A DNA stretch of 61,208 bases from an uncultured Variovorax sp. (lineage in GTDB: Bacteria; Pseudomonadota; Gammaproteobacteria; Burkholderiales; Burkholderiaceae_C): NCBI GenBank assembly GCA_913776885.1, contig CAJYQC010000418.1:1-61208 (forward strand), read 5' to 3'. The notes below the pieces were generated by a model. It did not search any database, was not told the DNA's origin, and worked only from the letters and a program-made list of their open reading frames with translations. Shown in pieces: positions 1,300 through 58,883 of this stretch. The translations under genes and the position numbers were made by a program. Positions within the stretch are counted from its first letter, which is position 1. Each line of letters begins with the position of its first letter.

Positions 1300-1392
1300 C
1301 CCCCAGGCTTCGCGCACCGCGCGGCGCTTCGCCCACCCCCGTTGCAAAGGGGCGCTGCCAGCGGCCCGGCGAAGCCGGTTGCGCGACGGCCC
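1300..1392 (+). repeat. Family A palindromic repeat (REP/MITE-like)
   Basis: CCCCAGGCTTCGCGCAC...CCCCC-n-GGGGGC...GCGGCCCGGCGAAGCCGGTTGCGCG; starts 3 nt after the stop at 1296. Confidence 0.85.
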
Positions 1393-1414
1393 TGGCCTGA
1401 AAGCAAACCTCATC

Positions 1415-2476
1415 ATGCGCAGTGTCCTCAAGGAGTTCTCCCTGCCGGTGTTCGCCATCGCGGCCGCGCTGCTGCTGTTCGGGCTGGTGGTGGCCTTCGC
1501 CGGCATCGACGCGGCGGAGGTCTGGGCCACGCTGTTCAAGGGCGCGTTCGGCGACTGGTTCTCGTGGCAGAACACGCTGCAGCGCGCCGCACCGCTGATG
1601 CTCACCGCGCTGTGCGTGGCGCTGCCCGCGCGCGCCGGCCTCATCGTGATCGGCGGCGAGGGCGCGCTGGTGCTGGGCGGGCTGGCGTGCGCGGCCCTGG
1701 CGCATGCGGTGCCGCTGCCCGGCAACGCCGTCGGCACGGCGATCGTCTGCATCGCGGGCGCCCTCGTCGGCGCGCTGTGGATCGTGCTCGCGGGCTGGCT
1801 GCGCCAGTACCGCGGCATCAACGAGACCATCAGCAGCCTGCTCTTGGCCTACATCGCCATCGGCGTCTTCAAGCACCTGGTCGAAGGGCCGCTGCGCGAC
1901 CCGGCCAGCCTCAACAAGCCGTCGACCTACGCGTTGAACGATGGGCTGCTGATCGGCGGCATCGGCGGCTCCGACGTGCACTGGGGCCTGGTGGTGGGCG
2001 TGGTGGCCTGCCTGGGGCTCGGCTGGTGGCTGCGCGCCACGGCATCGGGCTTCTCGGTGCGGGTGGTGGGCGGCAATCCGCGCACCGCGCAGCTCGTGGG
2101 GCTGCCGGCCACGCGGCTCATCCTTTCGGCCTGCGGGCTCGGCGGCGCGTGCGCGGGACTCGCGGGCGCCATCGAGGTGGCGGCAGTGCACACCAATGCG
2201 AACGCCTCGTTGATCGCGGGCTATGGCTACGCGGGCATCCTCGTTTCTTTCATCGCCCGGCACAACCCGGTGGCCATCGTGCCGGTGGCCATCCTGTTCG
2301 GCGGCTTCGGCGCGGCGGGCAGCCTGCTGCAGCGGCGGCTCGGCCTGCCCGATGCGTCGGTGCTGGTGCTGCAGGGCATCGCCTTCGTGCTGATCCTCGC
2401 GAGCGAGGGCCTGCGCACGGTGAACTGGAAGAAGTTCGGCGACCGCATGCTGCCCGAGGCAAGGAGCTACACATGA
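1415..2476 (+). CDS. ABC transporter permease (nucleoside/sugar type)
   Basis: Hydrophobic; IGGEG, NETISSLLL and GYGYAGILV motifs. Start moved to ATG 1415, downstream of the repeat. Confidence 0.88.
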   Translation: MRSVLKEFSLPVFAIAAALLLFGLVVAFAGIDAAEVWATLFKGAFGDWFSWQNTLQRAAPLMLTALCVALPARAGLIVIGGEGALVLGGLACAALAHAVPLPGNAVGTAIVCIAGALVGALWIVLAGWLRQYRGINETISSLLLAYIAIGVFKHLVEGPLRDPASLNKPSTYALNDGLLIGGIGGSDVHWGLVVGVVACLGLGWWLRATASGFSVRVVGGNPRTAQLVGLPATRLILSACGLGGACAGLAGAIEVAAVHTNANASLIAGYGYAGILVSFIARHNPVAIVPVAILFGGFGAAGSLLQRRLGLPDASVLVLQGIAFVLILASEGLRTVNWKKFGDRMLPEARSYT

Positions 2477-3396
2477 CGGCCGATCAGTGGATCGCGCTGA
2501 TCGCAGGCATCGTCGGCGGCGCGTTGCGCGTGGGCGCGCCCTTCCTCTTCGTGAGCCTGGGCGAGTGCCTGACCGAGAAGTCGGGCCGCATCAACCTCGG
2601 CCTCGAAGGCGTGCTGGTGCTGTCGGCCATGGCGGCCTTCGGCGGTGCGTATCTCACCGACTCCGCATGGCTCGGCGTGCTGATCGGCGCTGTGGCCGGC
2701 GCCGCGCTCGCGCTGCTGCACGGGCTGCTGTGTTCGCTCGACCGTGTGAACGACGTGGCGACCGGCATCGCGCTGATGCTGCTCGGCACCGGGCTCGCGT
2801 TCTACCTGGGCAAGCCGCTGATCCAGCCGCAGGCGCCGCAGATCCCGGCGATCCCGCTGGGTTTCTGGAGCGACAACGCGGTGGTGCGCTCGGCCCTGCA
2901 GCTCAACGCGCTGGTGCCGATCGGCGTGGCGCTGGCGGTGCTGCTGTGGTGGGGCTTCGCCCGCACGCGCGCCGGTCTGCTGGTGCGCATGGCGGGCGAC
3001 TCGGCGCAGGCGACTCGTGCGCTCGGCTACTCGGTCTCGGGCCTGCGCATCGCGGCTACCACGGCGGGCGGCTTCATCGCGGGGCTGGGCGGCGCGTCGC
3101 TCACGCTCTTCTATCCGGGCAGCTGGAATGAAGGCATCTCCAGCGGCCAGGGCCTGATCGCGGTGGCGCTGGTGATCTTCGCGCGCTGGAGCCCGCTGCG
3201 CTGCGTGGGCGCGGCGTTGCTCTTCGGCGGTGCCGGAGCCATCGGGCCGGCGCTGCAGTCCATCGGCATCGGCTGGGGCTACCACCTCTTCAACACCGTG
3301 CCCTATGTGCTCACGCTGGTGATTCTCGTGTTCACCTGCAGGCCGGGCAGCGCCGCCGCTGGCAGCCCCGGCGAACTTTCATCGACAAGGAGCTGA
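2473..3396 (+). CDS. ABC transporter permease (nucleoside/sugar type)
   Basis: MTADQW..., EKSGRINLGLEG and GQGLIAVALVIF motifs; AAGGAG RBS; ATGA overlap with the previous gene. Confidence 0.9.
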   Translation: MTADQWIALIAGIVGGALRVGAPFLFVSLGECLTEKSGRINLGLEGVLVLSAMAAFGGAYLTDSAWLGVLIGAVAGAALALLHGLLCSLDRVNDVATGIALMLLGTGLAFYLGKPLIQPQAPQIPAIPLGFWSDNAVVRSALQLNALVPIGVALAVLLWWGFARTRAGLLVRMAGDSAQATRALGYSVSGLRIAATTAGGFIAGLGGASLTLFYPGSWNEGISSGQGLIAVALVIFARWSPLRCVGAALLFGGAGAIGPALQSIGIGWGYHLFNTVPYVLTLVILVFTCRPGSAAAGSPGELSSTRS

Positions 3397-3401
3397 GCCT
3401 C

Positions 3402-8439: not shown

Positions 8440-8447
8440 GGGAAGTT

Positions 8448-8561
8448 GCTCCTTCCCCCACTGGGGGAAGGTCGGGATGGGGGCAAGCGGCCTTCTTGAG
8501 GCAGCGAAGTGTGCAAGGGCCGCTTGCCCCCACCCCGGCCCTCCCCCAGCGGGGGAGGGAG
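8448..8561. repeat. Family E REP doublet (CCTTCCCCC/GGGGGAAGG type)
   Basis: Two hairpins CTTCCCCC-act-GGGGGAAG and CCCTCCCC-cagc-GGGGGAGGG in inverted arrangement between convergent genes. Confidence 0.8.
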
Positions 8562-8574
8562 AAAGAAGACGGCC

Positions 8575-14062: not shown

Positions 14063-14152
14063 CCCCCCAGGCTGCGCGCACTTCGTGTCGCTTCGCCACA
14101 TCCTGCCGGGGGGCAACACCGGTGGCCCGGCAAAGCCGGTTCCACGGTGTTT
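14063..14152 (+). repeat. Family A palindromic repeat
   Basis: CCCCAGGCTGCGCGCACTTCGTGTCGCTTCGCCA...CCGGCAAAGCCGGTTCCACGGTGTT directly after the stop at 14062. Confidence 0.9.
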
Positions 14153-18728: not shown

Positions 18729-18738
18729 CCGAGGTACA

Positions 18739-18829
18739 CCCCCAGGCTTCGCGCACTTCTTGTCGCTGCGCCAGCCCCCTTGCAGGGGGCAATACAAGCG
18801 GCCCGGCGAACCCGGTTACGCGGTATTCC
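18739..18829 (+). repeat. Family A palindromic repeat
   Basis: CCCCCAGGCTTCGCGCACTTCTTGTCGCTGCGCCA...CCGGCGAACCCGGTTACGCGGTATTCC, 10 nt after the mreB stop. Confidence 0.88.
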
Positions 18830-19858: not shown

Positions 19859-20376
19859 TCAAGCGTCCAGGCCAGCAGCAGCTGCTGCTGCCCGTCAGCC
19901 CCGTCTTCATGTGGAGCAGCCTCGTGGTGGCGCTGCTGATCAACATGCTGCCGATCGGCCGCGCCGTCTGGATGCCCGACCTGCTGGCGCTGGTGATCGT
20001 GTTCTGGGGCGTGCACCAGCCCGCGCGCGTGGGCATCGGCGCGGCCTTCGTGTTCGGCCTGTGCATGGACGTGCACCAGTCGTCGATGCTGGGCCAGCAC
20101 GCGCTTTCCTACACCACGCTGGGCTTCTTCGCGATCACCATCCACCGGCGGCTGCTGTGGTACCCGGTGGCCTCGCAGGCGCTGCAGGTGCTGCCGCTCT
20201 TCGCGCTCTCGCAGCTGATCGAGGTGGTCACGCGGATGATCGGCGGCGGTGTGTTCCCGGGCTGGACGGTGCTGGCTTCGCCGGCCATCGAGGCTGCCTT
20301 GTGGCCCCTGGCAACAGCCTTGCTGCTGGCTCCCCAGCGCAGAACGCCGGAGCCGGACGAGAACCGTCCACTATGA
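19855..20376 (+). CDS. mreD: Rod shape-determining protein MreD
   Basis: PDLLALVIVFW, FVFGLCMDV, LGQHAL; ATGA overlap with mreC. Confidence 0.94.
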   Translation: MIKRPGQQQLLLPVSPVFMWSSLVVALLINMLPIGRAVWMPDLLALVIVFWGVHQPARVGIGAAFVFGLCMDVHQSSMLGQHALSYTTLGFFAITIHRRLLWYPVASQALQVLPLFALSQLIEVVTRMIGGGVFPGWTVLASPAIEAALWPLATALLLAPQRRTPEPDENRPL

Positions 20377-20381
20377 GTTCT

Positions 20382-20472
20382 CCCCCACGCTCCGCGCACA
20401 TCGGGTCGCTTCGCCAACCCCCTCGCCGGGGGCAACACCTTCGGCCGGGCAAAGCCCGTTGCGCGGTGTTCC
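20382..20472 (+). repeat. Family A palindromic repeat
   Basis: CCCCCACGCTCCGCGCACATCGGGTCGCTTCGCCAACCCCCTCGCCGGGGGCAACACC...CGGGCAAAGCCCG (stem-preserving changes), 5 nt after the mreD stop. Confidence 0.88.
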
Positions 20473-20552
20473 GCAGTCAATCCGTCCTGCTTTCGTGCGG
20501 CATTCGGCTCCCATTTGCCTTCGCACCTGCGCGCGCCTAAGCTCCCATCGCC

Positions 20553-22523
20553 ATGACCGAAATCCGCAACGTAGCAGCCGATCTCGCGCGCTTCAAGCGC
20601 CGCGTCATCGTGATCGGACTCGCGGTGCTCTTCGCCTTCGGGCTGCTGTGCGCGCGCCTGGTCTACCTGCAGGTCACGCGCCACGAGGACCTGGCCGAGC
20701 AGGCCGAGAGCAACCGCACGGCGGTGGTGCCGGTGGTGCCGAACCGGGGGCTCATCCTCGATCGCAACGGCATCGTGCTGGCCTCCAACTACTCGGCCTA
20801 CACGCTGGAGATCACGCCCTCGAAGGTGGGCGACGTGGAAGAGACCATCGACAGCCTCACGCAGGTGCTCGAAATCTCGCCGCGCGACCGCCGCCGCTTC
20901 AAGCGCCTGCGCGAGGACTCGCGCAGCTTCGACTCCATTCCGATCCGCACCCGCCTGAGCGACGAGGAGGTCGCCCGCTTCGCCGCCCAGCGCTACCGCT
21001 TCCCGGGCGTGGAGATCAAGGCGCGCCTGTTCCGCAACTACCCTCAGGGCGAGCTCGCCTCGCACGTGCTCGGCTACATCGGCCGCATCAACCAGCGCGA
21101 GAAGACCGCGATGGAGGACTGGGACGAAGAGGACCAGGCCAACTACAAGGGCACCGACTACATCGGCAAGCTGGGCATCGAACAGAGCTACGAGAAGACG
21201 CTGCACGGCCAGACCGGCGTGGAGCAGATGGAGACCTCCGCCGGCGGCCGCGCCGTGCGCCGCCTCGCCAGCCATCCGGCCACGCCGGGCAATACGGTGA
21301 TGCTGTCGCTCGACATCAAGCTGCAGAAGCTGGTGGAGGACATGTACGGAGACCGCCGCGGCGCGCTGGTGGCGATCGACCCGAAGACCGGCGAGATCCT
21401 CGCCTTCGTGAGCAAGCCCACCTTCGACCCGAACCTCTTCGTCGAAGGCATCGACAACGAGAGCTGGGCGGCGCTCACCGAATCCATCGACAAGCCGCTG
21501 CTGAACCGCGCCCTGCGCGGCACCTACCCGCCGGGCTCCACCTACAAGCCCTTCATGGCGCTGGCGGCGCTGCAGACCGGCAAGCGCGGCCCCAGCGTGG
21601 TGGTGAACGACCCAGGCTACTTCAACTTCGGCGGCCACCGCTTCGGCAGTCCCGAGGGCAACCTGGGCGGCGTCGACATGCGCCGCTCGATCCAGCTGTC
21701 GAGCAACATCTACTACTACTCGCTGGCCAACGAGATGGGCGTGGACATGATCCACGACTTCATGAAGCCGCTGGGCTTCGGCCAGATCACCGGCATCGAC
21801 CTCGGTGGCGAGGTGCGCGGCGTGCTGCCCAGCACCGAGTGGAAGCGCAACACCTACAAGCGCCCCGAGCAGAAGAAGTGGTACGCGGGCGAGACCATCT
21901 CGCTGGGCATCGGCCAGGGCTACAACAACTTCACCATGCTGCAGCTGGCGCAGGCCACCGCCACCATCGCCAACGGCGGCCTCAAGCACAAGCCTCACCT
22001 CGCGCTGGCCACGCGCGACACCGTGAGCGGCAACGTCGTGCCCCTGCCGCAGCCCGCGGCGGAGAACCTGGGCTTCACAGCCGCCAACATCGCGGTGATC
22101 CGCGAGGGCCTGACCAGCGTGGTCACCAGCGGCACCGCGCGCGGCGTGTTCGCGGGCGCCAGCTACCAGGCCGCCGGCAAGACCGGCACGGCGCAGGCGG
22201 TGTCGATGGGCCAGAACACCAAGTACAACGCGCGCGCGCTCGAGGAGCACCAGCGCGACCACGCCCTGTTCATGGCCTACGCGCCGGTGAACGACCCCAA
22301 GATCGCCCTGGCGGTGATCGTGGAGAACGCCGGCTGGGGCGCCGGCGCCGCAGCGCCCATCGCGCGCCGGGTGTTCGACTACTGGCTCGCCGACCAGTAC
22401 CCGAGCGAGGCCGACATGGCCGCCATCAAGATCGGCAAGGCAACCGCGCCGATCGGCAAGCCGCGCGTGGCGAGCGAGGTGGCCTGGCCGGCTGCGTCGG
22501 CCACGCCCGCCACCGCACCCTGA
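20553..22523 (+). CDS. mrdA: Penicillin-binding protein 2
   Basis: STYK (SxxK), SSN (SxN) and KTG motifs; N-terminal TM anchor; follows mreBCD. Confidence 0.96.
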   Translation: MTEIRNVAADLARFKRRVIVIGLAVLFAFGLLCARLVYLQVTRHEDLAEQAESNRTAVVPVVPNRGLILDRNGIVLASNYSAYTLEITPSKVGDVEETIDSLTQVLEISPRDRRRFKRLREDSRSFDSIPIRTRLSDEEVARFAAQRYRFPGVEIKARLFRNYPQGELASHVLGYIGRINQREKTAMEDWDEEDQANYKGTDYIGKLGIEQSYEKTLHGQTGVEQMETSAGGRAVRRLASHPATPGNTVMLSLDIKLQKLVEDMYGDRRGALVAIDPKTGEILAFVSKPTFDPNLFVEGIDNESWAALTESIDKPLLNRALRGTYPPGSTYKPFMALAALQTGKRGPSVVVNDPGYFNFGGHRFGSPEGNLGGVDMRRSIQLSSNIYYYSLANEMGVDMIHDFMKPLGFGQITGIDLGGEVRGVLPSTEWKRNTYKRPEQKKWYAGETISLGIGQGYNNFTMLQLAQATATIANGGLKHKPHLALATRDTVSGNVVPLPQPAAENLGFTAANIAVIREGLTSVVTSGTARGVFAGASYQAAGKTGTAQAVSMGQNTKYNARALEEHQRDHALFMAYAPVNDPKIALAVIVENAGWGAGAAAPIARRVFDYWLADQYPSEADMAAIKIGKATAPIGKPRVASEVAWPAASATPATAP

Positions 22524-23000
22524 TGCCTTGCTCCCTCTCCCTTCGGGGAGAGGGTTGGGGTGAGGGTGAGCGGCGATGAAGGCTGCTCGATGTTGCAAGG
22601 CCGAGAACCCTCACCCTGGCCCTCTCCCGGAGGGAGAGGGAAAAGACTCTCAACCCCCCGTTCCACTGACCTCGCCCAAGCCTGTCCGCCCCGTAGCCTG
22701 ATGCCTTGCTCCCTCTCCCCCTGGGGAGCGGGTTGGGGTGAGGGTGAGCGGCACTGAAGGCCGCGCGGTGTTGTGAGGCCGCGAGCCCTCACCCTGGCCC
22801 TCTCCCAGAGGAAGAGGGAAAGACTGTCAGAGCATCGTTCCGCTGACCTCGCCCAAGCGTGTCCGCCCCGTACCCTGATGCCTTGCGCCCTCTCCCCCTG
22901 GGGAGAGGGTTGGGGTGAGGGTGAGCGGCAATGAAGGCCGCGCGATGTCGTGAGGCCGCGAGCCCTCACCCTGGCCCTCTCCCGGAGGAAGAGGGGACAG
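22521..23000. repeat. Tandem array of Family E REP doublets (about 178-bp unit x about 2.7)
   Basis: Units start TGATGCCTTGC at 22521, 22699 and 22876; each has CCCTCTCCC..GGGAGAGGGTTGGGGTGAGGG and its inverse CCCTCACCCTGGCCCTCTCCC. Confidence 0.92.
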
Positions 23001-24323: not shown

Positions 24324-24408
24324 AACACCGCGGAACCGGCTTCGCCGGGCCGCAGGTGTCGCCCCCGGACGGGGGGTGGCGGCCACACGAAGTGGGCGAG
24401 CCTGAGGG
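24324..24408 (-). repeat. Family A palindromic repeat
   Basis: Reverse-strand copy (AACACCGCGGAACCGGCTTCGCCGGGCCGC...ACACGAAGTG on +), about 6 nt after the Bug gene stop. Confidence 0.88.
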
Positions 24409-24414: not shown

Positions 24415-25485
24415 CTAGTCTGCGGTCATGCCGGCTTTCCTGGCGACTTCGCCCAGGCGCTTGTATTCGGCCTCGGTCAGCGTTTCCAGCTCGTGCGCGC
24501 TGGAGCCGCGCGGCGAGAAGCCGGCCTGCGCCAGCTTGGCCTTCACGTCGGGCATCGCGAGCGCTTCCACGAAGGCCTCGTTCAGCGCCTTCACGACCGG
24601 CGCCGGCAGCTTCGCCGGCCCGTACACGCCGAACCACGGCTCCAGCGCGTAACCCTTCAGGCCCGCCTCGGCCATGGTCGGCACGTCGGGCAGCGAGGGA
24701 GAGCGCGCCGGGCCCGCCACCGCCAGCGCGCGCAGCTTGCCGGCCTGGATGTGCGGCAGCGAGGCCGGCAGGTTGTCGAACATCACGCCGATGTTGTTGC
24801 CCAGCATGTCGGTGATGGCCGGGCCGCTGCCCTTGTAGGCGACGTGCACGAGCTCGGTGCCGGTCATCTGCGCGAACATCACGCCCGCCAGGTTCATCGA
24901 GGTGCCGGCGCCCGCGGTGGCGTAGGGCAGGCCGGGGTTCTTCTTCGCGGCGGCGATCAGGTCGGGCACCGACTTGATGGCCGAAGCCGCCGGTACTTCG
25001 AGCACGATGGTCGACGTGCCCAGCAGGCTGATGGCGGTGAAGTCCTTGCGCGGATCGAAGGCCATCGACTTGTAGATGTGCGGGTTCAGCGCATTGGTCG
25101 AGATCGCGCCGAAGCCGATGGTGTAGCCGTCGGGCGCGGCCTTGGCCACCGCATCCATGCCGATGTTGCCGCCCGCGCCGCCGCGGTTGTCGATCAGAAC
25201 CGGCTGGCCCAGCTTCTCCGACACCTTCTGGCCCACGGTGCGCGCCACCAGGTCGGTGGTGCCGCCGGGGGTGTAGGGCACGATGAAGCGGATGGGCTTG
25301 GACGGGTAGTCGGCCGCGAACACCGCGGCCGGCGAGACGAGCGCGATGCCTGCCGCAGCGGCGACGAGCGAGACGAAGGCCTTTCGGGAGACACCGCGCA
25401 ACCGGCTGTGCCGGGCCGCTGGTGTTGCCTCTTCGAGGGGTGATTCGTCTACACGAAGCGAGCAAGAAACGGGGGTGGTTTTCAT
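24415..25485 (-). CDS. Bug/TctC substrate-binding protein with repeat-derived N-terminal insertion
   Basis: [33 protein letters not shown]; ATG overlaps the hmgA stop (ATGA); residues of about 5-33 are encoded by a Family A repeat. Confidence 0.9.
25390..25475 (-). repeat. Family A repeat, in frame inside the Bug gene
   Basis: GACACCGCGCAACCGGCTGTGCCGGGCCGCTGGTGTTGCC...ACACGAAG...GGGGG on +; translates on - as ...[14 protein letters not shown]. Confidence 0.8.
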
Positions 25486-27177: not shown

Positions 27178-28899
27178 TCAGTGTTTGCCGAGCGCGCGAT
27201 CGACTGCGCTGCGCACCTGCGCCGCCGACGGGGCGCGCCAGCGTGCACACACGTGCTGGTCGGGGCGCAGCAGGTACACGGTGCCGGGGCGGGCGTCGTA
27301 GCGCTGCGCGGCGAGTTCGCTGCCGCGGGCGCCGTCGTCCATGCGCACCACGTGCAGCGGCCGGTCGCTGGCGCTCAGCGCGGCGAGGCTGCGCTCGGCC
27401 GCCTCGCCCTGGCCGAACACCAGCGCGGTGAACTGCTCGACATGGCATTCGCGCAGCAGCCAGCCGGTGCTGCCGTCGGCATGCACCACGGGCGCGTCGG
27501 CCGCTGCGGCGCCGGGCACCATCGCGCCCGAGAAGGCGTCGGCGTCGGGCGTGTTCAGCGGCGAGTCGCGCAGCACCGAGGGCACCGACAGCCGGCCGCT
27601 GTTGACCAGCGTGCGCGCAAAGGCGTGGCGCTTCGTCAGCTCCAGCACCGCGTCGCGGAAGAGGCGGCTCACCTCGCTCTTGGGCGTGATGAAGTCGGTG
27701 GCGCGGGTGGAGTTGCGGATGTTCTCGTCGGCGGCGTATTCGCGCTCGCTGGCGTAGCTGTCGAGCAGCGCATCGGGCGCCTGGCCCTGCACCACGGCGG
27801 CGAGCTTCCAGGCGAGGTTGTCGGCGTCCTGCACGCCCGAATTGGCACCGCGCGCGCCGAAGGGCGACACGCCGTGGGCCGAGTCGCCCGCGAACAGCAC
27901 GCGGCCGTGGCGGAAGCGCTCCATGCGCTGGCAGGCGAAGGTGTAGACGCTGGCCCAGCCGATCCGGAACTGCACGCCTTCGAAGCCGATGCTGTCGAGC
28001 AGGGCGCGCACGCGCGGCGTGATGTTCTCGGGCTTGCGCTCCTCCACCGGGTCGGCGTCCCAGCCGAGCTGGAAGTCCACGCGCCACATGCCGTCGGCCT
28101 GCTTGTGCAGCAGCACGCTCTGGCCAGGGTGGAACGACGGGTCGAACCAGAAGCGGCGCTCGTTGGAAAGAATGTCGCCCCCCACGCTCGGCACTTCGTG
28201 TCCTCGCTGCCCCCCCGAGGGGGGCGCGCCCGCCTTGGGGCGGCCCGGCGGCGGCCCGGCGTCCATCGTGATGTCGGCGATCAGGAAGCGGTCGCGGAAC
28301 ACGCGGCCCTTGGCCTCCAGGCCCAGCAGCTGGCGCGTGTTGGAGCGCGAGCCGTCGCAGGCGGCCACGTAGTCCGCCTGCAGCCTGTAGCTGCCCTCGG
28401 GCGTCTCCACCGTCAGCACCGCGCCGTCGTCGCCCTGCTCGATGCCGGTGACCTTGTTGTTCCAGCGCAGGTCGACCAGCGGCAGCGCCGCCGCGCGCTC
28501 GACGAGGTAGCCCTCGACGTAGTACTGCTGCAGGTTGATGAAGGCCGGGCGCTCGTGGCCGGGCTCGGGCAGCAGGTCGAAGCGGTAGACCTGCTCGTCG
28601 TGGAAGAACACCTTGCCCACGTTCCACGACACGCCCTTGTCGACCATGCGGTCGCCGCAGCCCAGGCGGTCGAACACCTCCAGCGTGCGCTTGGCGAAGC
28701 AGATCGCGCGCGAGCCGCTGGAAAGGGTGTTGTCGTTGTCGAGCAGCACCACGGGCACCTGCCGCAGCGCGAGGTCGATGGCCAGCGTCAGCCCGACCGG
28801 GCCGGCGCCGATCACCACCACCGGGTGGCGCGCCGGGGCGGCCGCGTCCTGGTCGGCGTGGCGTTTGTAGTCGAAGCGCAGGCTTTGATAGTCGATCAC
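27178..28899 (-). CDS. FAD-dependent aromatic hydroxylase (MhpA/PheA-like) with internal repeat insertion
   Basis: GAGPVGL, ACDGSRS, AGDSAH..SPFGARGANSGVQDADNL; C-terminal LLRPDQHV; GTG start with GGAGAC RBS. Confidence 0.9.
   Translation of the reverse strand: MIDYQSLRFDYKRHADQDAAAPARHPVVVIGAGPVGLTLAIDLALRQVPVVLLDNDNTLSSGSRAICFAKRTLEVFDRLGCGDRMVDKGVSWNVGKVFFHDEQVYRFDLLPEPGHERPAFINLQQYYVEGYLVERAAALPLVDLRWNNKVTGIEQGDDGAVLTVETPEGSYRLQADYVAACDGSRSNTRQLLGLEAKGRVFRDRFLIADITMDAGPPPGRPKAGAPPSGGQRGHEVPSVGGDILSNERRFWFDPSFHPGQSVLLHKQADGMWRVDFQLGWDADPVEERKPENITPRVRALLDSIGFEGVQFRIGWASVYTFACQRMERFRHGRVLFAGDSAHGVSPFGARGANSGVQDADNLAWKLAAVVQGQAPDALLDSYASEREYAADENIRNSTRATDFITPKSEVSRLFRDAVLELTKRHAFARTLVNSGRLSVPSVLRDSPLNTPDADAFSGAMVPGAAAADAPVVHADGSTGWLLRECHVEQFTALVFGQGEAAERSLAALSASDRPLHVVRMDDGARGSELAAQRYDARPGTVYLLRPDQHVCARWRAPSAAQVRSAVDRALGKH
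28178..28253 (+). repeat. Family B repeat, in frame (antisense) within the hydroxylase gene
   Basis: CCCCACGCTCGGCACTTCGTGTCCTCGCTGCCCCCCGAGGGGGGCG...CCTTGGGGCGGCCCGGCGG; the same element is intergenic at 45690-45763. Confidence 0.85.
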
Positions 28900-28924
28900 G
28901 TCTTGTCTCCGTGTCTTTTGTCTT

Positions 28925-29031
28925 TGCTCCTTCCCCCGCTGGGGGAAGGCCGGGATGGGGGCACGACGGCGTTCACTTCGGGCGCTCTGCCTGCCCCCAT
29001 CCCAACCCTCCCCCCAGAGGGAGAGGGAGCA
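28925..29031. repeat. Family E REP doublet
   Basis: CTCCTTCCCCCGCTGGGGGAAGG..GGATGGGGGC / GCCCCCATCC..CCCTCCCCCAGAGGGAGAGGGAGC. Confidence 0.82.
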
Positions 29032-33726: not shown

Positions 33727-34575
33727 CTACCTTTCGGCGCCCTGCCCGGGGGCAGGCTGCGCGGTGGATTGTCCGGCTGGCTTGTCATGCAGCGCCTCGA
33801 GCGCGCGCTGGCCGCGCCCGCCGAGGAAGTATTCGTGGATGAAGGGGTGCGGATACGCGATGACCTCGCGCGCCGCGCCGGTGACGATCACCTTCTGGTC
33901 GGCCAGCACCGCGATGCGGGTGCTCAGGTCGAACAGCGTGTCCAGGTCGTGCGTGACCATCACCACCGTGAGGCCCAGCTCGCGGTGCAGGCCGCGCAGC
34001 AGGTCGCAGAAGCTGTCGGAGGCCTCGGGGTCGAGGCCGGCCGTGGGTTCGTCAAGCAGCAGCAGGGGCGGGTCCATGATGAGCGCGCGCGCCAGCGCCA
34101 CGCGCTTGATCATGCCGCCCGAAAGATCGGCCGGGCTCTTGTTGGCATGCTGCGGGCCCAGGCCCACCATCTGCAGCTTCACCAGCGCGGCGTGGCGGAT
34201 GAGTTCGTCGGGCAGCAGCTTCAGCTCGCGCAGCGGAAAGGCGATGTTCTCCAGCACGCTGAAGGCCGAGAACAGCGCGCCGTGCTGGAACAGCATGCCC
34301 ACGTTGGCCGCGCCCGAGGCGCTGAGCTCGCCGGGCTGCTGGCCGAGCACTTCGACGTGGCCGCGCGTGGGCTTCTCCAGCCCGAGGATCTGGCGCAGCA
34401 GCACCGTCTTGCCCGTGCCCGATCCGCCCACCAGCGAGAGCACCTCGCCGCGATCGATGTGCAGCTGCAGGTCGCGGTGCACCACCTGCTCGCCATCGGC
34501 GCTTTCGAACACGGTCCACAGCCCGCGGATGTCCACCACGGTGGCGTCGGTGTCGGGGCGCACGGGCATGCTCAT
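33727..34575 (-). CDS. MlaF-like ABC ATP-binding protein
   Basis: GGSGTGKT, LSGGMIKR, LDEPTAGLDP; start placed at ATG 34575 because the ORF-track N-terminus is repeat-derived. Confidence 0.9.
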   Translation of the reverse strand: MSMPVRPDTDATVVDIRGLWTVFESADGEQVVHRDLQLHIDRGEVLSLVGGSGTGKTVLLRQILGLEKPTRGHVEVLGQQPGELSASGAANVGMLFQHGALFSAFSVLENIAFPLRELKLLPDELIRHAALVKLQMVGLGPQHANKSPADLSGGMIKRVALARALIMDPPLLLLDEPTAGLDPEASDSFCDLLRGLHRELGLTVVMVTHDLDTLFDLSTRIAVLADQKVIVTGAAREVIAYPHPFIHEYFLGGRGQRALEALHDKPAGQSTAQPAPGQGAER

Positions 34576-34635
34576 GCGGCTGCTCCTTTTCGCCAGCAAT
34601 GTGCGCGATCCGCGAGCACCGCATGGCCGAGGCCA

Positions 34636-34710
34636 GGAACACCACGGAGCCGGCTCGGCCGGGCCGCGGGTGTCGCCCCCGGCGAGGGAAGGGCGCGAAG
34701 ACTGGGCGAG
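34636..34710 (-). repeat. Family A repeat (internally shortened)
   Basis: GGAACACCACGGAGCCGGCTCGGCCGGGCCGCGGGTGTCGCCCCCGGCGAGGG on +; about 10 nt after the permease stop. Confidence 0.75.
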
Positions 34711-34720
34711 CACCTCATGT

Positions 34721-38595: not shown

Positions 38596-38684
38596 CCACG
38601 CCCGACTCTCGCGCACTTCGTGTCGCTCCCATCCCCCCGAGGGGGCGCTCTCTGCGGTCCGGCAGAGCCGGTTCCGCGGGAGCT
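38596..38684 (+). repeat. Family A repeat variant with B-like central hairpin
   Basis: CGCGCACTTCGTGTCGCT...CCCCCGAGGGGGCG...CCGGCAGAGCCGGTTCCGCGG directly after the mmsA stop. Confidence 0.8.
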
Positions 38685-40714: not shown

Positions 40715-40743
40715 CTGTGGCCTGCATTCGGTCTGATGCCAGA

Positions 40744-40935
40744 AACACCCAGGAACCGGCTCCGCCGGGCCTGAGGTGTTGCCCCCGGTAGGGGGTTGGC
40801 GCAGCGACACGAAGTGCGCGCAGCCTGGGGGCGAGCCTGGAACACCCAGGAACCGGCTTCGCCGGGCCTGAGGTGTTGCCCCCGGTAGGGGGTTGGCGCA
40901 GCGACACGAAGTGCGCGCAGCCTGGGGGCGAGCCT
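40744..40935 (-). repeat. Family A repeat, tandem x2 (97-bp period)
   Basis: AACACCCAGGAACCGGC recurs at 40744 and 40841; near-identical units abutting the SBP stop. Confidence 0.93.
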
Positions 40936-44886: not shown

Positions 44887-45681
44887 CTATCTGCGCCCCA
44901 CCAGCACGCGGTCGAGGCCGTACACGCGGTCGAGCAGCACCATCGCGAAGGCCGTCACCGCCACCATCAGCGCCGACACGGCGGCCATCAGCGGATCGAT
45001 GGATTCGGTCGCGTACATGTACATGCGCACCGGCAGCGTGACCGTGCTCGGCGAGGTGACGAAGATCGACATCGTCACTTCGTCGAAGCTGTTGATGAAC
45101 GACAGCATCCAGCCGCCCGTCACGCCCGGCAGGATCATCGGCAGCGTGATGCGGCGGAACACCGTGGCCTGGCTCGCGCCCAGCGAGAGCGCGGCCTGCT
45201 CGGCGCTGCGGTCGAAGCCCACCAGCGCCGCCACCACCAGCCGCAGCGTGTAGGGCGTGACGATGAGCGCATGCGCCAGGACTAGCCAGCCGAAGCTGCC
45301 CGCGCCGCCCACCAGCGAGAACAGGCGCAGCAGCGCCACGCCCAGCACCAGGTGCGGAACGATCAGCGGCGAGAGGAACAGGCCGTTCAAGAAGTCGCGC
45401 CCCGGGAACTCGTAGCGCGTGATCGCCATGCCGGCCGGCACCGCGAGCAGCGTCGCGATGGTGGCCGAGCTCAGCGCGAGCCACAGGCTGTTCCAGAACG
45501 ACTGCATGAAGTCGGGGTGCGCGAACACCGCCTCGAACCAGCGCAGCGAGAAGTGCGTGGTGGGGATGGTCAGCGTGTTCTCGGGCGTGAACGCCACGAT
45601 GCACACCACCACCAGCGGCGCCAGCATGAAGACGATGACCAGCGCGTTGAACGCGAGGGCGATGGGGCCGTTCTTGTTCAT
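44887..45681 (-). CDS. ABC transporter permease (PotC-like)
   Basis: FSLRWF, EQAALSLGA, SFDEV; start placed at MNKNG after the Family B repeat. Confidence 0.9.
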   Translation of the reverse strand: MNKNGPIALAFNALVIVFMLAPLVVVCIVAFTPENTLTIPTTHFSLRWFEAVFAHPDFMQSFWNSLWLALSSATIATLLAVPAGMAITRYEFPGRDFLNGLFLSPLIVPHLVLGVALLRLFSLVGGAGSFGWLVLAHALIVTPYTLRLVVAALVGFDRSAEQAALSLGASQATVFRRITLPMILPGVTGGWMLSFINSFDEVTMSIFVTSPSTVTLPVRMYMYATESIDPLMAAVSALMVAVTAFAMVLLDRVYGLDRVLVGRR

Positions 45682-45689
45682 GGTGCTTC

Positions 45690-45763
45690 CCGCCGGGCCG
45701 CCCCAAGGGAGGCACGCGCCCACTCGGGGGGCAGCGAATACACGAAGTGATGGAGCGTGGGGG
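45690..45763 (-). repeat. Family B repeat (intergenic)
   Basis: On -: CCCCCACGCTCCATCACTTCGTGTATTCGCTGCCCCCCGAGTGGGCG...CCTTGGGGCGGCCCGGCGG, 6 nt after the stop at 45770. Confidence 0.85.
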
Positions 45764-45769
45764 CCATGG

Positions 45770-46630
45770 TCACCCCAACGCCTTCTTGTAGCGGCCTTCT
45801 ACTAGCCGGTTGTAGCTGAGCATCACAGCCAGGTTGGCGACGAGCAGCACCAGCGCCACCGCAGCACCCAGCGGCCAGTTGAGCTCGCTCAGGTACTCGT
45901 CGTAGACGATGGTCGCGACCATCTTCAGCCGCCGTCCGCCCAGCAGGCCCGGAATGGCGAAGGAGCTCGCCGCCAGCCCGAAGACGATCAGGCTGCCCGA
46001 GAGAATGCCCGGCATCACCTGCGGCAGCACGATGCGCCGCAGCGTGGTGAAGGGCGTGGCGTTGAGCGAGAGGGCGGCGTTCTCCACGCCGGGGTCGAGC
46101 TTCTGCAGCGAGGTCCACACCGGAATCACCATGAAGGGCAGCATCACGTGGACCAGCGCGATGACCACCGCCGCGTTGGTGTAGAGGATCTTCACCGGCC
46201 CGATGCCGAGCAGGCCCAGCAGCCCGTTCACCGCGCCCTCGGGGCCCAGCAGCATGCTCCAGCCGAAGGCCCGCACCACCACCGACACCAGCAGCGGCGC
46301 CAGCACCACCAGCAGCAGCACCGAGCGCCACGGGTTGCGCATGCGGCTGAGCACATACGCTTCGGGCGCGCCGATCAGCACGCAGATCACCGTGACCAGC
46401 GCCGAGACCCAGAAGGTGCGCCAGAAGATGCCGAGGTAGTACGAATCGGAGAACACCAGCGCGTAGTGCGCGAGCGTGAACTCGCCCGTCTTCGGTCCGG
46501 TGGCCGGGTCGTAGACGTTGAACGACAGCACCGCGGTGAGTCCCAGCGGCACCACCAGCAGCACCGTGAACAGCAGCAGCGCGGGGCCGGAGAGCCACCA
46601 GGGCGTGGCCTTGCTCTTCGACGTACTCAT
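45770..46630 (-). CDS. ABC transporter permease (PotB-like)
   Basis: PLLVSVVVRAFGW, ENAALSLNA, NWPLGAA. Confidence 0.9.
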   Translation of the reverse strand: MSTSKSKATPWWLSGPALLLFTVLLVVPLGLTAVLSFNVYDPATGPKTGEFTLAHYALVFSDSYYLGIFWRTFWVSALVTVICVLIGAPEAYVLSRMRNPWRSVLLLVVLAPLLVSVVVRAFGWSMLLGPEGAVNGLLGLLGIGPVKILYTNAAVVIALVHVMLPFMVIPVWTSLQKLDPGVENAALSLNATPFTTLRRIVLPQVMPGILSGSLIVFGLAASSFAIPGLLGGRRLKMVATIVYDEYLSELNWPLGAAVALVLLVANLAVMLSYNRLVEGRYKKALG

Positions 46631-51076: not shown

Positions 51077-52306
51077 GTGACCACCGATACCGCCGTGCCC
51101 ATCGCCTTTTCTCCTGCGCAGCGCGTGCGCGCCATCGGCGTCTCGGAGATCCTGCGCATCACCGACCACGCCAATGCGCTCAAGCGCGCCGGCCGCCCGG
51201 TGATCGTGCTGGGTGCGGGCGAGCCCGATTTCGATACGCCGCAGAACGTGCGCGACGCTGCCGTGCAAGCCATCGGCCGTGGCGACACGCGCTACACGGT
51301 GCTCGACGGCAGCCCGGCGATGAAGGCGGCGGTGCAGCTGAAGTTCAGGCGCGACAACGCGCTCGACTTCGCGCTCGACGAGATCAGCGTGAGCGCGGGC
51401 GCCAAGCAGGTGATCTTCAACGCACTGATGGCCAGCCTGGACCCGGGCGACGAAGTCATCCTGCCCGCGCCGTACTGGACCTCGTACGCGGACATGGTGC
51501 AGGTCTGCGGCGGCATTCCCGTTCCTGTTGCCGGCACCGAGGCCAACGGCTTCCGGCTCGATGCCGCGCAGCTCGAAACGGCCATCACGCCGCGCACGCG
51601 CTGGCTGTTCCTGAATTCACCATCGAACCCGAGCGGTGCGGCGTACAGCGCCGACCAGCTCAAGCCACTGTGCGAGGTGCTGCTGCGCCATCCGCAGGTC
51701 TGGGTGCTGGCGGACGACATCTACGAGCACATCCTCTACGACGGACTGGCTTTCGCCACGCCGGTGGCGGTGGAGCCGCGCCTGCGCGAACGCACGCTGA
51801 CGGTGAACGGCGTTTCAAAGGCTTATGCGATGACAGGCTGGCGCGTGGGCTACGGCGCAGGGCCGCGCGCTCTCATCGCCGCGATGGCCGTGGTGCAGAG
51901 CCAGACCACGTCGTGCCCCTCGTCGATCAGCCAGGCAGCGGCCATCGAGGCGCTGACCGGGCCGCAGGACACCGTGGCCGAGCGCTGCGCCGACTTCCAG
52001 GCGCGGCGCGACTTCGTGGTCGCCGCGCTGAACCGCGCACCGGGCCTGCACTGCCGCGTGCCCGAGGGCGCGTTCTACACATTCGCGAGCTGCGCCGGCG
52101 TGCTCGGCCGGCGTACGCGCGGCGGCATGCTGCTGCACAGCGACAGCGATTTCTGCCGCTACCTGCTGCAGGACTTCGAGGTCGCGGTGGTGCCGGGCAG
52201 CGTATTCGGGCTGGCGCCGTATTTCCGCATCTCGTACGCGACCTCGACGGCGCAGCTGCGGGAGGCCTGCGAGCGCATCCAGGCTGCCTGCGAGGCGCTG
52301 GAATGA
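51077..52306 (+). CDS. PLP-dependent class I (aspartate-type) aminotransferase
   Basis: GEPDFDTP, NSPSNPSG, DDIY, SKAYAMTGWRVG, RISYA; GTG start after GGAGG. Confidence 0.92.
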   Translation: MTTDTAVPIAFSPAQRVRAIGVSEILRITDHANALKRAGRPVIVLGAGEPDFDTPQNVRDAAVQAIGRGDTRYTVLDGSPAMKAAVQLKFRRDNALDFALDEISVSAGAKQVIFNALMASLDPGDEVILPAPYWTSYADMVQVCGGIPVPVAGTEANGFRLDAAQLETAITPRTRWLFLNSPSNPSGAAYSADQLKPLCEVLLRHPQVWVLADDIYEHILYDGLAFATPVAVEPRLRERTLTVNGVSKAYAMTGWRVGYGAGPRALIAAMAVVQSQTTSCPSSISQAAAIEALTGPQDTVAERCADFQARRDFVVAALNRAPGLHCRVPEGAFYTFASCAGVLGRRTRGGMLLHSDSDFCRYLLQDFEVAVVPGSVFGLAPYFRISYATSTAQLREACERIQAACEALE

Positions 52307-52612
52307 CTCCGCTTTTCTCCCTCCCCTTCCGGGGGCGGGTTGGGGTGGGGGCAGGCGGCGCATCCAATGCCGCTGCCCATCCATCGCCGCTTGCCCCAAT
52401 CCCGGCCTTCCCCGGAGGGGGAAGGAGCGAATGCCTCGATGATGCAGCCGCTCGACGCATCCAGGCGGCCTGCGAGGCGCCCGAATGACCCCGCGTTTCT
52501 CCCTCCCCTTCCGGGGGAGGGCTGGGGTGGGGGCATGCAGCGTCTGCGTTGCCGCTGGCTTTTGCACCGCCGCTTGCCCCCATCCCAGCCTTCCCCCAGA
52601 GGGGGAAGGGGC
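52274..52612. repeat. Tandem duplication (182-bp period) of gene tail plus Family E REP doublet
   Basis: CGCATCCAGGC.GCCTGCGAGGCGC..GAATGAC at 52274 and 52456, each followed by CTCCCTCCCCTTCCGGGGG.GGG.TGGGGTGGGGGCA. Confidence 0.88.
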
Positions 52613-52645
52613 AACCCCCGATATCTTCATCTCCCAGGAAAACCC

Positions 52646-54319: not shown

Positions 54320-54606
54320 CTCCCCCAGGCTCTGCGCACTTCGTGTCGCTTCGCCAACCCCCTCGCCGGGGGCGACACCAGCGGCCCGGCAAAGCCGGTT
54401 CCGCGGAGGCTAAGTTCTCCCCCAGGCTCTGCGCACCTCGTGTCGCTTCGCCAACCCCCTCGCCGGGGGCGACACCCGCGGCCCGGCAAAGCCGGTTTCG
54501 CGGAGGCTAAGTTCTCCCCCAGGCTTCGCGCACTTCGTGTCGCTTCGCCAACCCCCTCGCCGGGGGCGATACCAGCGGCCCGGCAAAGCCGGTTCCGCGG
54601 TGTCCC
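54320..54606 (+). repeat. Family A repeat, tandem x3 (97-bp period)
   Basis: CTCCCCCAGGCT at 54320, 54417 and 54514 with identical linker GAGGCTAAGTT; begins 3 nt after the stop. Confidence 0.95.
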
Positions 54607-56319: not shown

Positions 56320-56353
56320 TGCACTGAGGCGGTGCGTGCCCCTAAAGTCTGCG
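56320..56353. promoter_or_regulatory. Putative NtrC-type enhancer site(s)
   Basis: TGCACTGAGGCGGTGCG (56320-56336) fits TGCAC-N7-GTGCA; weaker adjacent TGCCCCTAAAGTCTGCG; 75-105 nt upstream of the sigma54 site. Confidence 0.55.
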
Positions 56354-56359
56354 CACTCG

Positions 56360-56490
56360 CGAACGGGCCCTGCTCGTGTGCCGAGGGTCCGAGGAGACAA
56401 ACCCCCAAGCAACAAGAAAAATTCTTCAAAGGCTCCGTACGAGATGCCTGTCCAACCTTGAAGGCGCCGCTGGTCGGCGCCTTTTTTATT
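56360..56490 (+). ncRNA. Candidate structured sRNA or leader RNA
   Basis: Hairpin GGGCCCT/AGGGTCC, unpaired GAGGAGACAAAC with no downstream start, helix TTCAAAGG/CCTTGAA, then an intrinsic terminator. Confidence 0.4.
56461..56490 (+). terminator. Rho-independent terminator
   Basis: AAGGCGCC-gctggtc-GGCGCCTT followed by TTTTATT. Confidence 0.8.
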
Positions 56491-56563
56491 TGCGCGGAGG
56501 CTTGGGGCATCGGCCTTCGCAGCTACTTTTTCGATAGCACCGGGGTGAGACAATCCAGGCCCT

Positions 56564-57322: not shown

Positions 57323-57342
57323 CGAAAGACGAAAGTCGCCCG

Positions 57343-58713
57343 ATGCCCTCTGCCCCGGATCCCGTCGAGCGCCCCGCCACTGTGAGCTTCTGGCAGGCCT
57401 TCGGCTACTGGCTCAAGCTGGGCTTCATCAGCTTCGGCGGGCCGGCCGGGCAGATCGCGCTGATGCACCAGGAACTGGTGGAGCACAGGCGCTGGATCTC
57501 GGATAAGCGATTTCTACACGCGCTCAACTACTGCATGCTGCTGCCCGGCCCTGAGGCCCAGCAGCTGGCCACCTACATCGGCTGGCTCATGCACCGCACC
57601 TGGGGCGGCGTCGCGGCGGGGGTGCTGTTCGTGCTGCCCTCGCTCTTCATCCTGATCGCGTTGTCGTGGGTCTACATGGCCTATGGGCAGGTGCCGGCGG
57701 TGGCGGGGCTGCTGTACGGCGTGAAGCCGGCGGTCACCGCCATCGTGCTGTTCGCGGCCTGGCGCATCGGCTCGCGGGTGTTGAAGAACCCCTGGCTCTG
57801 GGCGATCGCTGCAGCGGCGTTCGTGGCGATCTTCGCGCTGCAGCTGCCCTTTCCGCTGATCGTGCTTGCGGCGGCGGCCATCGGCTACTTCGGCAGCCGG
57901 GTGGCGCCGCAGCGCTTCGCGCCGGGCGGCGGCGGGCATGGTGCGGCAGGGGCGGCGGCCATCGGCCCGGCGCTCATCGACGACGACACGCCCACACCCG
58001 CGCACGCGCGCTTCGGCTGGGGCCGCTTCTGGCGCGTGCTGGGCGTGTTCCTCGCGCTGTGGCTGGGCGCCATGGGCGCGCTCACCGCGCTGTACGGCTG
58101 GCACGGCACGCTCACGCAGATGGGCTGGTTCTTCACCAAGGCCGCGCTCATGACCTTCGGCGGCGCCTACGCGGTGCTGCCCTATGTGTTCCAGGGCGCG
58201 GTCGACCACTTCGGCTGGCTCGGCGCCACGCAGATGATCGACGGCCTCGCGCTCGGCGAGACCACGCCGGGGCCGCTGATCATGGTGGTGTCGTTCGTGG
58301 GCTTCGTCGGCGGCTGGAACCAGGCGCTCTCCGCCGGTGACCCGCTCTTCGCGGCAGGGGCCGTGGCGGCGACGGTGGTGTGCTTCTTCACCTTCCTGCC
58401 GTCCTTCCTCTTCATTCTGCTGGGCGGTCCCTTCATCGAATCGACGCACGGCAACCTGAAACTCACCGCGCCGCTCACGGCCATCACCGCGGCGGTGGTG
58501 GGCGTGATCGTCAACCTGGCGGTGTTCTTCGCCTGGCACGTGCTGTGGCCGAAGGGGGCCGGCGGCGGCTTCGACGCGGCATCCGCGGCGATCGGGCTGA
58601 TCGCCGCCGTGGCGCTGTTCCGCTTCAAGGCCGGCGTGATCCCGGTGGTGCTCGCCTCGGCCCTGCTGGGGCTGGCGTGGCAGCTGTTGCTGCTGCCTTT
58701 GCTGCCCCACTGA
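57343..58713 (+). CDS. chrA: Chromate efflux transporter (long-chain CHR)
   Basis: KLGFISFGGPAGQIA, LPGPEAQQLA, TFGGAYAV, ETTPGP. Confidence 0.93.
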   Translation: MPSAPDPVERPATVSFWQAFGYWLKLGFISFGGPAGQIALMHQELVEHRRWISDKRFLHALNYCMLLPGPEAQQLATYIGWLMHRTWGGVAAGVLFVLPSLFILIALSWVYMAYGQVPAVAGLLYGVKPAVTAIVLFAAWRIGSRVLKNPWLWAIAAAAFVAIFALQLPFPLIVLAAAAIGYFGSRVAPQRFAPGGGGHGAAGAAAIGPALIDDDTPTPAHARFGWGRFWRVLGVFLALWLGAMGALTALYGWHGTLTQMGWFFTKAALMTFGGAYAVLPYVFQGAVDHFGWLGATQMIDGLALGETTPGPLIMVVSFVGFVGGWNQALSAGDPLFAAGAVAATVVCFFTFLPSFLFILLGGPFIESTHGNLKLTAPLTAITAAVVGVIVNLAVFFAWHVLWPKGAGGGFDAASAAIGLIAAVALFRFKAGVIPVVLASALLGLAWQLLLLPLLPH

Positions 58714-58721
58714 CCTTTCGT

Positions 58722-58883
58722 GGAACACCGCGGAACCGGCTTTGCCGGGCCGCAGGTGTTGCCCCCGGAAGGGGGTTGGCGCAGCGACACGAAGTGCGCG
58801 AAGCCTGGGGGCGAATCTGGTCTCCGCGGAACCGGCTTCGCCGCACCGCAGGTGTGCCCACGGAAGGGCGCGCAGCCCCGGGC
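58722..58883 (-). repeat. Family A repeat, one full plus one shortened copy
   Basis: Full copy at 58722-58811 and degenerate copy at 58821-58883, starting about 5 nt after the tctA stop. Confidence 0.88.

What the first reader, a model, noticed from the sequence alone, without database searches (positions are those of the whole stretch)
1300..58883. Strand-specific ~90-97 nt structured element placed immediately after stop codons (Family A)
Seen: 15 copies at 11 loci (1300, 14063, 18739, 20382, 24324, 25390, 34636, 38596, 40744 x2, 54320 x3, 58722 x2). Consensus is about CCCCAGGCT.CGCGCACTTCGTGTCGCTTCGCCAACCCCC.n.GGGGGC.ACACC.GCGGCCCGGC.AAGCCGGTTCCGCGGTG. At every locus the CCCCAGG end begins within about 15 nt of a stop codon and on that gene's strand (6 loci on +, 5 on -). 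The element is asymmetric with no terminal inverted repeats and has three hairpins. Stem-preserving changes occur (CCGGC-AAA-GCCGG vs CGGGC-AAA-GCCCG; variable loop in CCCCC..GGGGG), and there is no U-tract. Several copies sit inside operons (mreB-mreC, mreD-mrdA). Established: E. coli REPs close to stop codons can affect translation and mRNA decay. Inference: this is either a non-autonomous mobile element whose targeting is tied to gene ends, or a selected 3'-UTR RNA module. No mobilising enzyme is in the window. I cannot tell whether the family is already catalogued.
Basis: partly seen in the sequence, partly recalled or inferred. Interest (0 to 1): 0.8.

Follow-up and report, generated by a model that had tools for sequence, protein, structure and literature searches.

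The report
Stop-codon repeat with ribosome relay
This is a roughly 90-base hairpin repeat, related to a little-studied betaproteobacterial repeat, that sits just behind stop codons at about 270 places in this genome; inside operons it is often spanned by a throw-away reading frame that likely carries ribosomes across it to the next gene.

Summary
Observation confirmed: 15 copies at 11 loci in the window; 296 copies at 273 loci in the genome. 220 of 247 loci lie on the upstream gene's strand, and 211 of those 220 start within about 13 nt of its stop. It is a variant of BRE (Betaproteobacterial repeat element, PMC3110155): same 5' module and GCGGCCCGGC motif, a different third hairpin, and natural hybrids exist. 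Orthologous sites are filled, empty or held by other repeats, so it is gained and lost; no mobilising enzyme was found.

An ATG sits at the upstream stop in 73 of 165 co-directional loci but 1 of 40 convergent ones. It opens a 34-80-codon frame through the hairpins, in any frame, often ending on the next start codon. At three sites filled and empty alleles differ by a synonymous last codon that supplies the ATG. It works like mycobacterial MIRUs, but the relay is site-dependent, not built in, and the rule is stop-side. Translation is inferred, not shown. Earlier scan notes reached the MIRU reading on other DNA. New variant of a known kind.

The parts
1299..1388 (+). Family A copy after ABC substrate-binding gene (stop 1296)
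1293..1400 (+). Relay ORF, 35 codons; ATGA overlap with the upstream stop; ends 14 nt before the called start at 1415
   Evidence: same in G018
14064..14152 (+). Copy in a convergent gap facing gatB; no ATG
18738..18828 (+). Copy between mreB and mreC; no ATG; 20 of 30 genus alleles carry a U-tract hairpin here instead
20381..20471 (+). Copy between mreD and mrdA
20373..20540 (+). Relay ORF, 55 codons; its ATG uses the last base of mreD's final codon (CTA TGA; most empty alleles read CTC TAA); ends 12 nt before mrdA
24324..24407 (-). Copy between a TctC-family gene and fumarylacetoacetase; no ATG
25390..25476 (-). Copy after hmgA, read in frame from the ATGA overlap at 25485 as the N-terminus of the TctC-family protein
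34638..34706 (-). Degenerate copy (18-nt, frame-preserving deletion) between mlaE-like and mlaF-like genes
34572..34718 (-). Relay ORF, 48 codons, ending in an ATGA overlap with the mlaF-like start; the empty junction is ATGA-coupled or bridged by 3-9 codons in most of 30 genomes
38600..38682 (+). Copy after methylmalonate-semialdehyde dehydrogenase; no ATG; empty allele has a terminator-like hairpin
40743..40928 (-). Tandem dimer (40743-40831, 40840-40928), period 97
54321..54604 (+). Tandem trimer (period 97) in a convergent gap; single copy in G018
58723..58883 (-). Dimer in a convergent gap: degenerate copy next to the stop, then a full copy (58723-58811); site empty in G018
45683..45773 (-). 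BRE-type sister repeat (family B) between potB-like and potC-like genes, with a 29-codon relay ORF (45678-45767) ending in ATGA
28167..28256 (+). BRE-type sister repeat inside an FAD-monooxygenase gene on the opposite strand

Best explanation
Family A is a variant of the betaproteobacterial repeat BRE, a likely non-autonomous mobile element that sits in sense orientation directly behind stop codons, and inside operons it is likely tolerated because ribosomes re-initiate at an ATG on or beside the upstream stop, read through the hairpins and are handed to the next gene. Shown: position, orientation, gain and loss at orthologous sites, the hairpins, and the ATG contrast between co-directional and convergent sites. 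Inferred: that the element moves by an enzyme supplied in trans; that a landing site just behind a stop is the least harmful one; that the relay frames are translated; and that they are kept because an untranslated, structured, C-rich stretch would uncouple translation or invite Rho. The peptide itself does not matter: all three frames and both strands are used.
For: ATG within -3..+9 of the stop: 73 of 165 co-directional against 1 of 40 convergent loci, P=7e-8, and against 122 of 663 element-free co-directional gaps, P=3e-11. The ATG frame ends on or just before the called next start (-3..+3) in 25 of 73 loci against 13 of 146 for the other two frames, P=7e-6. ATG offsets fall in all three frames. 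8 of 20 antisense-sited copies have an ATG at the upstream stop on the mRNA strand; 4 of these end within -1..+3 of the next start. Filled against empty alleles: CTA TGA vs CTC TAA at mreD; ATA TGA vs ATC TGA at C110; ATA TGA vs ATC TAG at C162. ATG status agrees in 19 of 19 filled orthologous pairs. At mlaE-mlaF three different repeats occupy a coupled junction, each with a relay. Mobility: 26 of 63 G000 loci lack a copy in G018/G004; alleles are interleaved on the tree; in G063, 19 of 20 loci start right after CTGA or CTAG and the 14 full-length ones end in CTGA (13) or CTGT (1). Stop adjacency replicates: 31 of 47 in G135, 27 of 31 in G018, 23 of 26 in G004, against 4-5% at random positions.
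Against: 92 of 165 co-directional loci have no ATG (66 have no ATG, GTG or TTG), including mreB-mreC, so the relay is not required everywhere. 48 of 73 ATG frames do not end within -3..+3 of the called start (19 end 4-30 nt before it, 16 earlier, 9 later, 4 are fused). The link between a short empty gap and a relay is weak: 7 of 8 against 5 of 13, P=0.07, after dropping one mis-parsed row. No long target duplication in G000; tetramer repeat 43 of 156 against 34 expected, P=0.027. CTGA is under-represented at G000 sites (21% against 46% of all stops), so the G063 target does not generalise, and the G063 form may be a separate carrier that captured the core. No enzyme found. No RNA or ribosome data. 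Filled and empty alleles usually differ in the whole spacer, so allele exchange between species and loss by deletion (relics L010, L018) explain part of the patchiness without new insertions.
Confidence: 0.6

Rival explanations
1. A host-selected 3'-UTR RNA module like E. coli REPs: it blocks 3'-5' decay, terminates with Rho, or slows terminating ribosomes, and is kept for that effect. The ATGs are secondary.
For: Strict sense orientation. First stem within 15 nt of the stop in 166 of 210 loci, the distance given for REP stalling in PMC5082802 (passage). It occupies the slot of a U-tract hairpin at mreB-mreC and elsewhere. Hairpin 3 covaries: 171 double changes in 2293 cells, 19 fully paired combinations.
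Against: Patchy presence among close relatives. G-T over A-C bias is mild (130 against 95). The antisense strand folds at least as well in 219 of 235 copies. Hairpins 1 and 2 barely covary. Double changes can arise by template switching in DNA hairpins (recalled). Antisense copies exist in operons.
Confidence: 0.2
2. A plain MIRU: the element inserts at the start codon of a coupled gene, duplicates NTGA, and the relay is simply the old start codon left in front of it.
For: Empty junctions at C168, C418 25390, C615 and mlaE-mlaF are ATGA overlaps, and the filled alleles keep ATGA at the 5' end. C485 has a 12-bp direct repeat. The G063 subfamily has CTGA at both ends and a built-in ATG. Agrees with scan note e1-2507646.
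Against: 40 convergent loci have no start codon to target yet keep the same stop-side spacing. 13 of 21 empty co-directional gaps exceed 25 nt. At mreD, C110 and C162 the empty allele has no ATG at the stop. TAG and TAA stops are over-represented.
Confidence: 0.15
3. The element encodes a functional small peptide or N-terminal tag.
For: 71 of 73 ATG frames stay open through the core; 4 are fused to the next gene.
Against: Three frames and both strands are used; lengths 34-80 codons; tails are unique to each locus.
Confidence: 0.03

Closest known systems
BRE, Betaproteobacterial repeat element (Hot et al. 2011, PMC3110155)
   Same: About 90 bp, dispersed and tandem, Betaproteobacteria including Comamonadaceae; same 5' C-tract, small hairpin, C5/G5 hairpin and GCGGCCCGGC motif; hybrids with a BRE 5' half and a family A 3' hairpin occur (L175 and others).
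   Different: Different third hairpin; 296 copies against 1-29 reported. In the parts I read the paper reports no stop-codon rule, relay frame or mechanism.
MIRU, mycobacterial interspersed repetitive units (Supply et al. 1997; seen only as summarised in PMC12548453 and PMC3184786)
   Same: Mobile hairpin repeat in operons whose small ORF overlaps the neighbouring genes; tandem copies; tetranucleotide repeats in the G063 subfamily.
   Different: MIRUs insert at start codons with a built-in ORF at -4 spacing. Here placement follows the stop, the ATG is absent at convergent sites and more than half of co-directional sites, and frame and length vary.
REP/REPIN with RAYT (PMC3733652 passages; PMC5082802 passage on E. 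coli REPs)
   Same: Hundreds of extragenic hairpin copies near 3' ends of genes.
   Different: No GTAG or CGTC tag, 90 nt and asymmetric, only head-to-tail arrays, no RAYT flanked by copies.
MITEs such as ERIC and Correia (PMC3184786 passages)
   Same: Non-autonomous, structured, intergenic, some fused to ORFs.
   Different: No terminal inverted repeats and no consistent target duplication.

Membership tests
BRE | About 90-bp dispersed and tandem repeat in Betaproteobacteria | tested here: met
   296 copies, 21 tandem loci; 18 of 18 genus and 78 of 120 family genomes, 0 of 12 from other families of the order; named holders nearly all Betaproteobacteria
BRE | Shared sequence modules with the published BRE | tested here: met
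   List S1 passages compared by eye with L212, L137, L215 and the window's family B; alignment with family A shows the shared 5' module and 10-mer (its rows L143 and L156 were mis-specified and are ignored); hybrids
BRE | Full-length similarity (over 70% identity to the BRE query) | tested here: not met
   A profile of G000's BRE-type copies hit 25 sites, 0 overlapping family A; the third hairpin differs. The published sequence itself was not aligned.
MIRU | Small ORF overlapping upstream stop and downstream start | tested here: inconclusive
   73 of 165 have the ATG; 16 of 73 end in an exact NTGA overlap and 25 of 73 within -3..+3
MIRU | Insertion at start codons of coupled genes | tested here: not met
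   40 convergent loci; 13 of 21 empty gaps over 25 nt
MIRU | Tetranucleotide direct repeats at both ends | tested here: inconclusive
   Weak in G000 (43 of 156 against 34 expected); clear in the G063 subfamily, for which no empty site was available
MIRU | Sequence homology to mycobacterial MIRUs | not tested
   No MIRU sequence was fetched
REP/RAYT | 20-40-bp palindrome tagged GTAG or CGTC | tested here: not met
   Consensus
REP/RAYT | RAYT gene flanked by copies | tested here: not met
   0 of 30 Y1_Tnp loci carry family A; only the 30 best-scoring loci were examined
MITE | Terminal inverted repeats and target-site duplication | tested here: not met
Rfam families | Match at gathering score | tested here: not met
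   0 matches in the window

The most novel reading that the evidence does not exclude
The BRE superfamily is steered to gene ends by translation termination or by the hairpin slot behind the stop, not by a DNA target word, and hosts then build relay ORFs anew at each operon site, even through rare synonymous last codons. That would be a mobile element guided by gene expression, and hundreds of independent natural experiments in the evolution of translational coupling.
Probability: 0.2. Interest if true: 0.8.

Novelty: new variant of a known kind. Interest (0 to 1): 0.5.

Why it matters
It gives a published repeat of no known function (BRE) a placement rule and a testable way of being tolerated. 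The contrast of 73 of 165 against 1 of 40 is a genome-scale sign that an untranslated insert inside an operon costs something, which makes translational coupling and polarity testable at many sites, including mreBCD-mrdA. It also warns annotators: these 34-80-codon frames and N-terminal extensions are repeat-derived, not new small proteins. The open question is the enzyme and how it finds the 3' end of genes.

Tried and rejected
Mobilising enzyme, none found. DUF559: G000's gene and the other loci printed are flanked by a different window repeat, not family A; 2 of 30 loci held one stray copy. Y1_Tnp: 0 of 30. GIY-YIG: 1 of 30, a single copy at a UvrC-sized ORF. In G063 and G135: no reverse transcriptase; IS91-type genes in G135 and one IS110 in G063 share no sequence with the element (6 of 20 IS91 loci examined). 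The 24 G000 genes flanked on both sides look like ordinary host genes from their N-termini. Phages: no match. Plasmids: 8 records, all non-mobilizable. Viral contigs: 3 loci, two in an injection-system gene cluster.
Replication-strand bias: suggested by 29 of 37 minus-strand loci in 400 kb of G135 and by a truncated list; rejected by a complete list, 27 of 48 on the leading strand, counted by hand with dnaA as origin. 22 of 46 in G004 and G018, hand count.
Long target duplications and shared 3' tails: no excess over shuffles.
RNA against DNA, and sense against antisense structure: undecided.
Frame conservation in orthologues: gap changes are multiples of three in 4 of 5 ATG loci against 2 of 6 others; too few, and one rests on a start-call difference.
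No expression data were obtained, so translation and RNA ends remain open. The G063 genus has one genome, so no empty site. The REP stalling paper is not held.
Literature searches with nothing further on this family; most subscription journals are not covered.
Full report
Observation. The finding is real. A profile from window copies returns the 15 copies at 11 loci. After one iteration it finds 296 copies at 273 loci in G000, and none in the reversed genome; all 21 multi-copy loci are head-to-tail. Copies are 84% identical on average. With my own gene calls, 220 of 247 loci with an intact 5' end and an upstream gene lie on that gene's strand, and 211 of the 220 begin within -5..+13 of the stop. 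Uniform placement in the same gaps would give about 72 of 212 within 13 nt, against 205 seen. Only 5 of 238 loci are in divergent gaps, which are 615 of 2104 gaps of 90 nt or more. An annotation-free check repeats the rule in G135 (31 of 47), G018 (27 of 31) and G004 (23 of 26), against 4-5% at random; the G018 and G004 copies are partly orthologous to G000's, so they are not independent.

Range and identity. Matches occur in 18 of 18 genus genomes, 78 of 120 family genomes (many only in the 3' half) and 0 of 12 genomes from other families of the order. The closest named records are Variovorax, so the window is probably from that genus. Rfam has no match. Hot et al. 2011 (PMC3110155; I read parts 2-4 of 6 and passages of supplement 1) describe BRE, a 90-bp repeat of Bordetella and Comamonadaceae with no function assigned. 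By eye its reverse strand is the window's second repeat (28167-28256, 45683-45773; 25 copies in G000). They include family A, BRE-type copies and hybrids with a BRE 5' half and a family A 3' hairpin. The two profiles do not cross-match in G000 (0 of 25). Family A is therefore a variant within a modular BRE superfamily, not BRE itself.

Structure. Three hairpins. Hairpin 3 covaries: position 64-85 is CG in 169, AT in 33 and TA in 18 of 235 copies, and seven of eight pairs tested exceed all 1000 shuffles. The shuffles ignore relatedness, but 19 fully paired combinations occur. Hairpins 1 and 2 and the inner part of hairpin 3 are conserved in sequence, with few double changes. Strand and RNA against DNA are undecided.

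Gain and loss. At mreB-mreC 10 of 30 genus loci carry the element and 20 carry a U-tract hairpin; at mreD-mrdA there are family A, BRE-type, hybrid, reversed, relic and empty alleles, interleaved on a tree of the flanking genes. 26 of 63 G000 loci with an orthologue in 40 stretches of G018 and G004 lack a copy there; those stretches were centred on known copies, which biases towards filled. The spacer usually differs as a whole, so these are not clean insertions. In G063 a young 160-165-bp form, core plus fixed tail, starts after CTGA or CTAG in 19 of 20 loci and ends in CTGA or CTGT in the 14 full-length ones; 9 of 20 start sites are the called stop, and most carry a built-in ATG or GTG. One such unit sits at a TGATG junction before a gene whose N-terminus I recognise as ruvC (recalled). 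This is the best evidence of active movement, but it may be a separate carrier and G000 sites do not favour CTGA.

The relay. An ATG lies on or beside the upstream stop in 73 of 165 co-directional and 1 of 40 convergent loci (71 of 159 and 0 of 36 with stricter gene scores). Element-free co-directional gaps give 122 of 663; convergent ones give 61 of 574, not different from 1 of 40 (P=0.17). 71 of 73 frames cross the core. 25 end within -3..+3 of the next called start, against 13 of 146 in the other frames; 19 more end 4-30 nt before it; 4 are fused. All three frames are used, and 8 of 20 antisense-sited copies have an ATG at the upstream stop on the mRNA strand (my note said 9, the count is 8). 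So the relay belongs to the site, not to the element. At mreD, C110 and C162 the filled allele ends in CTA TGA or ATA TGA where the empty allele has CTC TAA, ATC TGA or ATC TAG: a synonymous difference supplies the ATG. Direction and timing of those changes are not shown. At mlaE-mlaF the empty junction is coupled in most of 30 genomes, and family A (3), a second repeat sharing the BRE hairpin (4) and a third insert (1) each carry a relay. Against: 92 co-directional loci lack an ATG, and the link to short empty gaps is only P=0.07 (one mis-parsed row dropped from 22).

Mechanism. Shown: placement, orientation, patchiness, hairpins, ATG contrast. Inferred: movement by a trans-acting enzyme, translation of relays, and selection against polarity or lost coupling. 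The review PMC12548453 (passages) states that Rho loads on untranslated RNA and that MIRUs insert at start codons with an ORF coupled at -4. PMC3184786 (passages) adds tetranucleotide repeats and lists BRE. I did not see Supply et al. 1997. Family A works like a MIRU inside operons but fails the start-codon test, so it is not filed as one. Searches for DUF559, RAYT, GIY-YIG, reverse transcriptase, IS91 and IS110 partners found none; each covered at most 30 best loci.

Prior notes. Scan notes e1-2507646 and e1-5296349 reached a MIRU-like reading for what appear to be this or a related family in other genomes. I had the BRE and MIRU reading before looking, and they are not independent evidence. 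Note e1-1021792 prompted the family-wide GIY-YIG search, which was negative.

Verdict. Real, a variant of a published but unexplained repeat, with a known analogue for the relay. What is new is the stop-side rule across all contexts and the site-dependent relay. Interest 0.5.

Noticed in passing
window 8446-8564, 22461-23000, 28924-29027, 52274-52614; L035, L038-L058: A different purine/pyrimidine hairpin repeat (boxC-like, name recalled). The same kind of repeat flanks DUF559 nuclease genes in G000 and in the 20 family loci printed, many at the same junction before a thiolase-like gene; DUF559 is its likely mobiliser.
   Followed up: partly
window 28167-28256: BRE-type copy inside an FAD-monooxygenase gene on the opposite strand, apparently in frame; 7 of 25 BRE-type copies in G000 lie inside called genes, against 1 of 273 family A loci.
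   Followed up: partly
L310, L311, L312, L315 (mlaE-mlaF junction): A MIRU-like repeat with a 22-codon ORF, ATGA or GTGA ends and a GGAGG motif that carries the BRE third hairpin in reverse; possibly a further member of the superfamily.
   Followed up: partly
L305: A 350-nt insert at the same junction with a 110-codon frame from ATGA to ATGA.
   Followed up: no
G063, L367-L396: Young CTGA-flanked 160-165-bp form; L389 shows a neighbouring unit with similar ends but another interior, and an 80-bp palindrome inserted in one copy.
   Followed up: partly
L178, L200: Another small repeat is inserted in the loops of BRE-superfamily copies.
   Followed up: no
G000 C58, C590, C318, C595 (rows 72, 82, 96, 105): Where relatives carry family A, G000 carries a terminator-like hairpin or another long hairpin repeat: different repeats occupy the same slot behind a stop.
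   Followed up: no
L319, L320: A contractile-injection-system-like cluster (sheath, tube; recognised from the sequence, not scanned) filed as a viral contig carries two copies, both with an ATG at the upstream stop.
   Followed up: partly
G135:C1:1543880-1590111: About 17 IS91-type (Y2) transposase genes or fragments clustered in 47 kb; unrelated to the element.
   Followed up: no
G000 C444 3120 and C65 2900 against L092, L090: Orthologous sites hold different subfamily variants, or family A against BRE-type, suggesting gene conversion or replacement between copies.
   Followed up: no
window 61110-61206: Gly/Arg-rich low-complexity coding repeat at the contig end.
   Followed up: no
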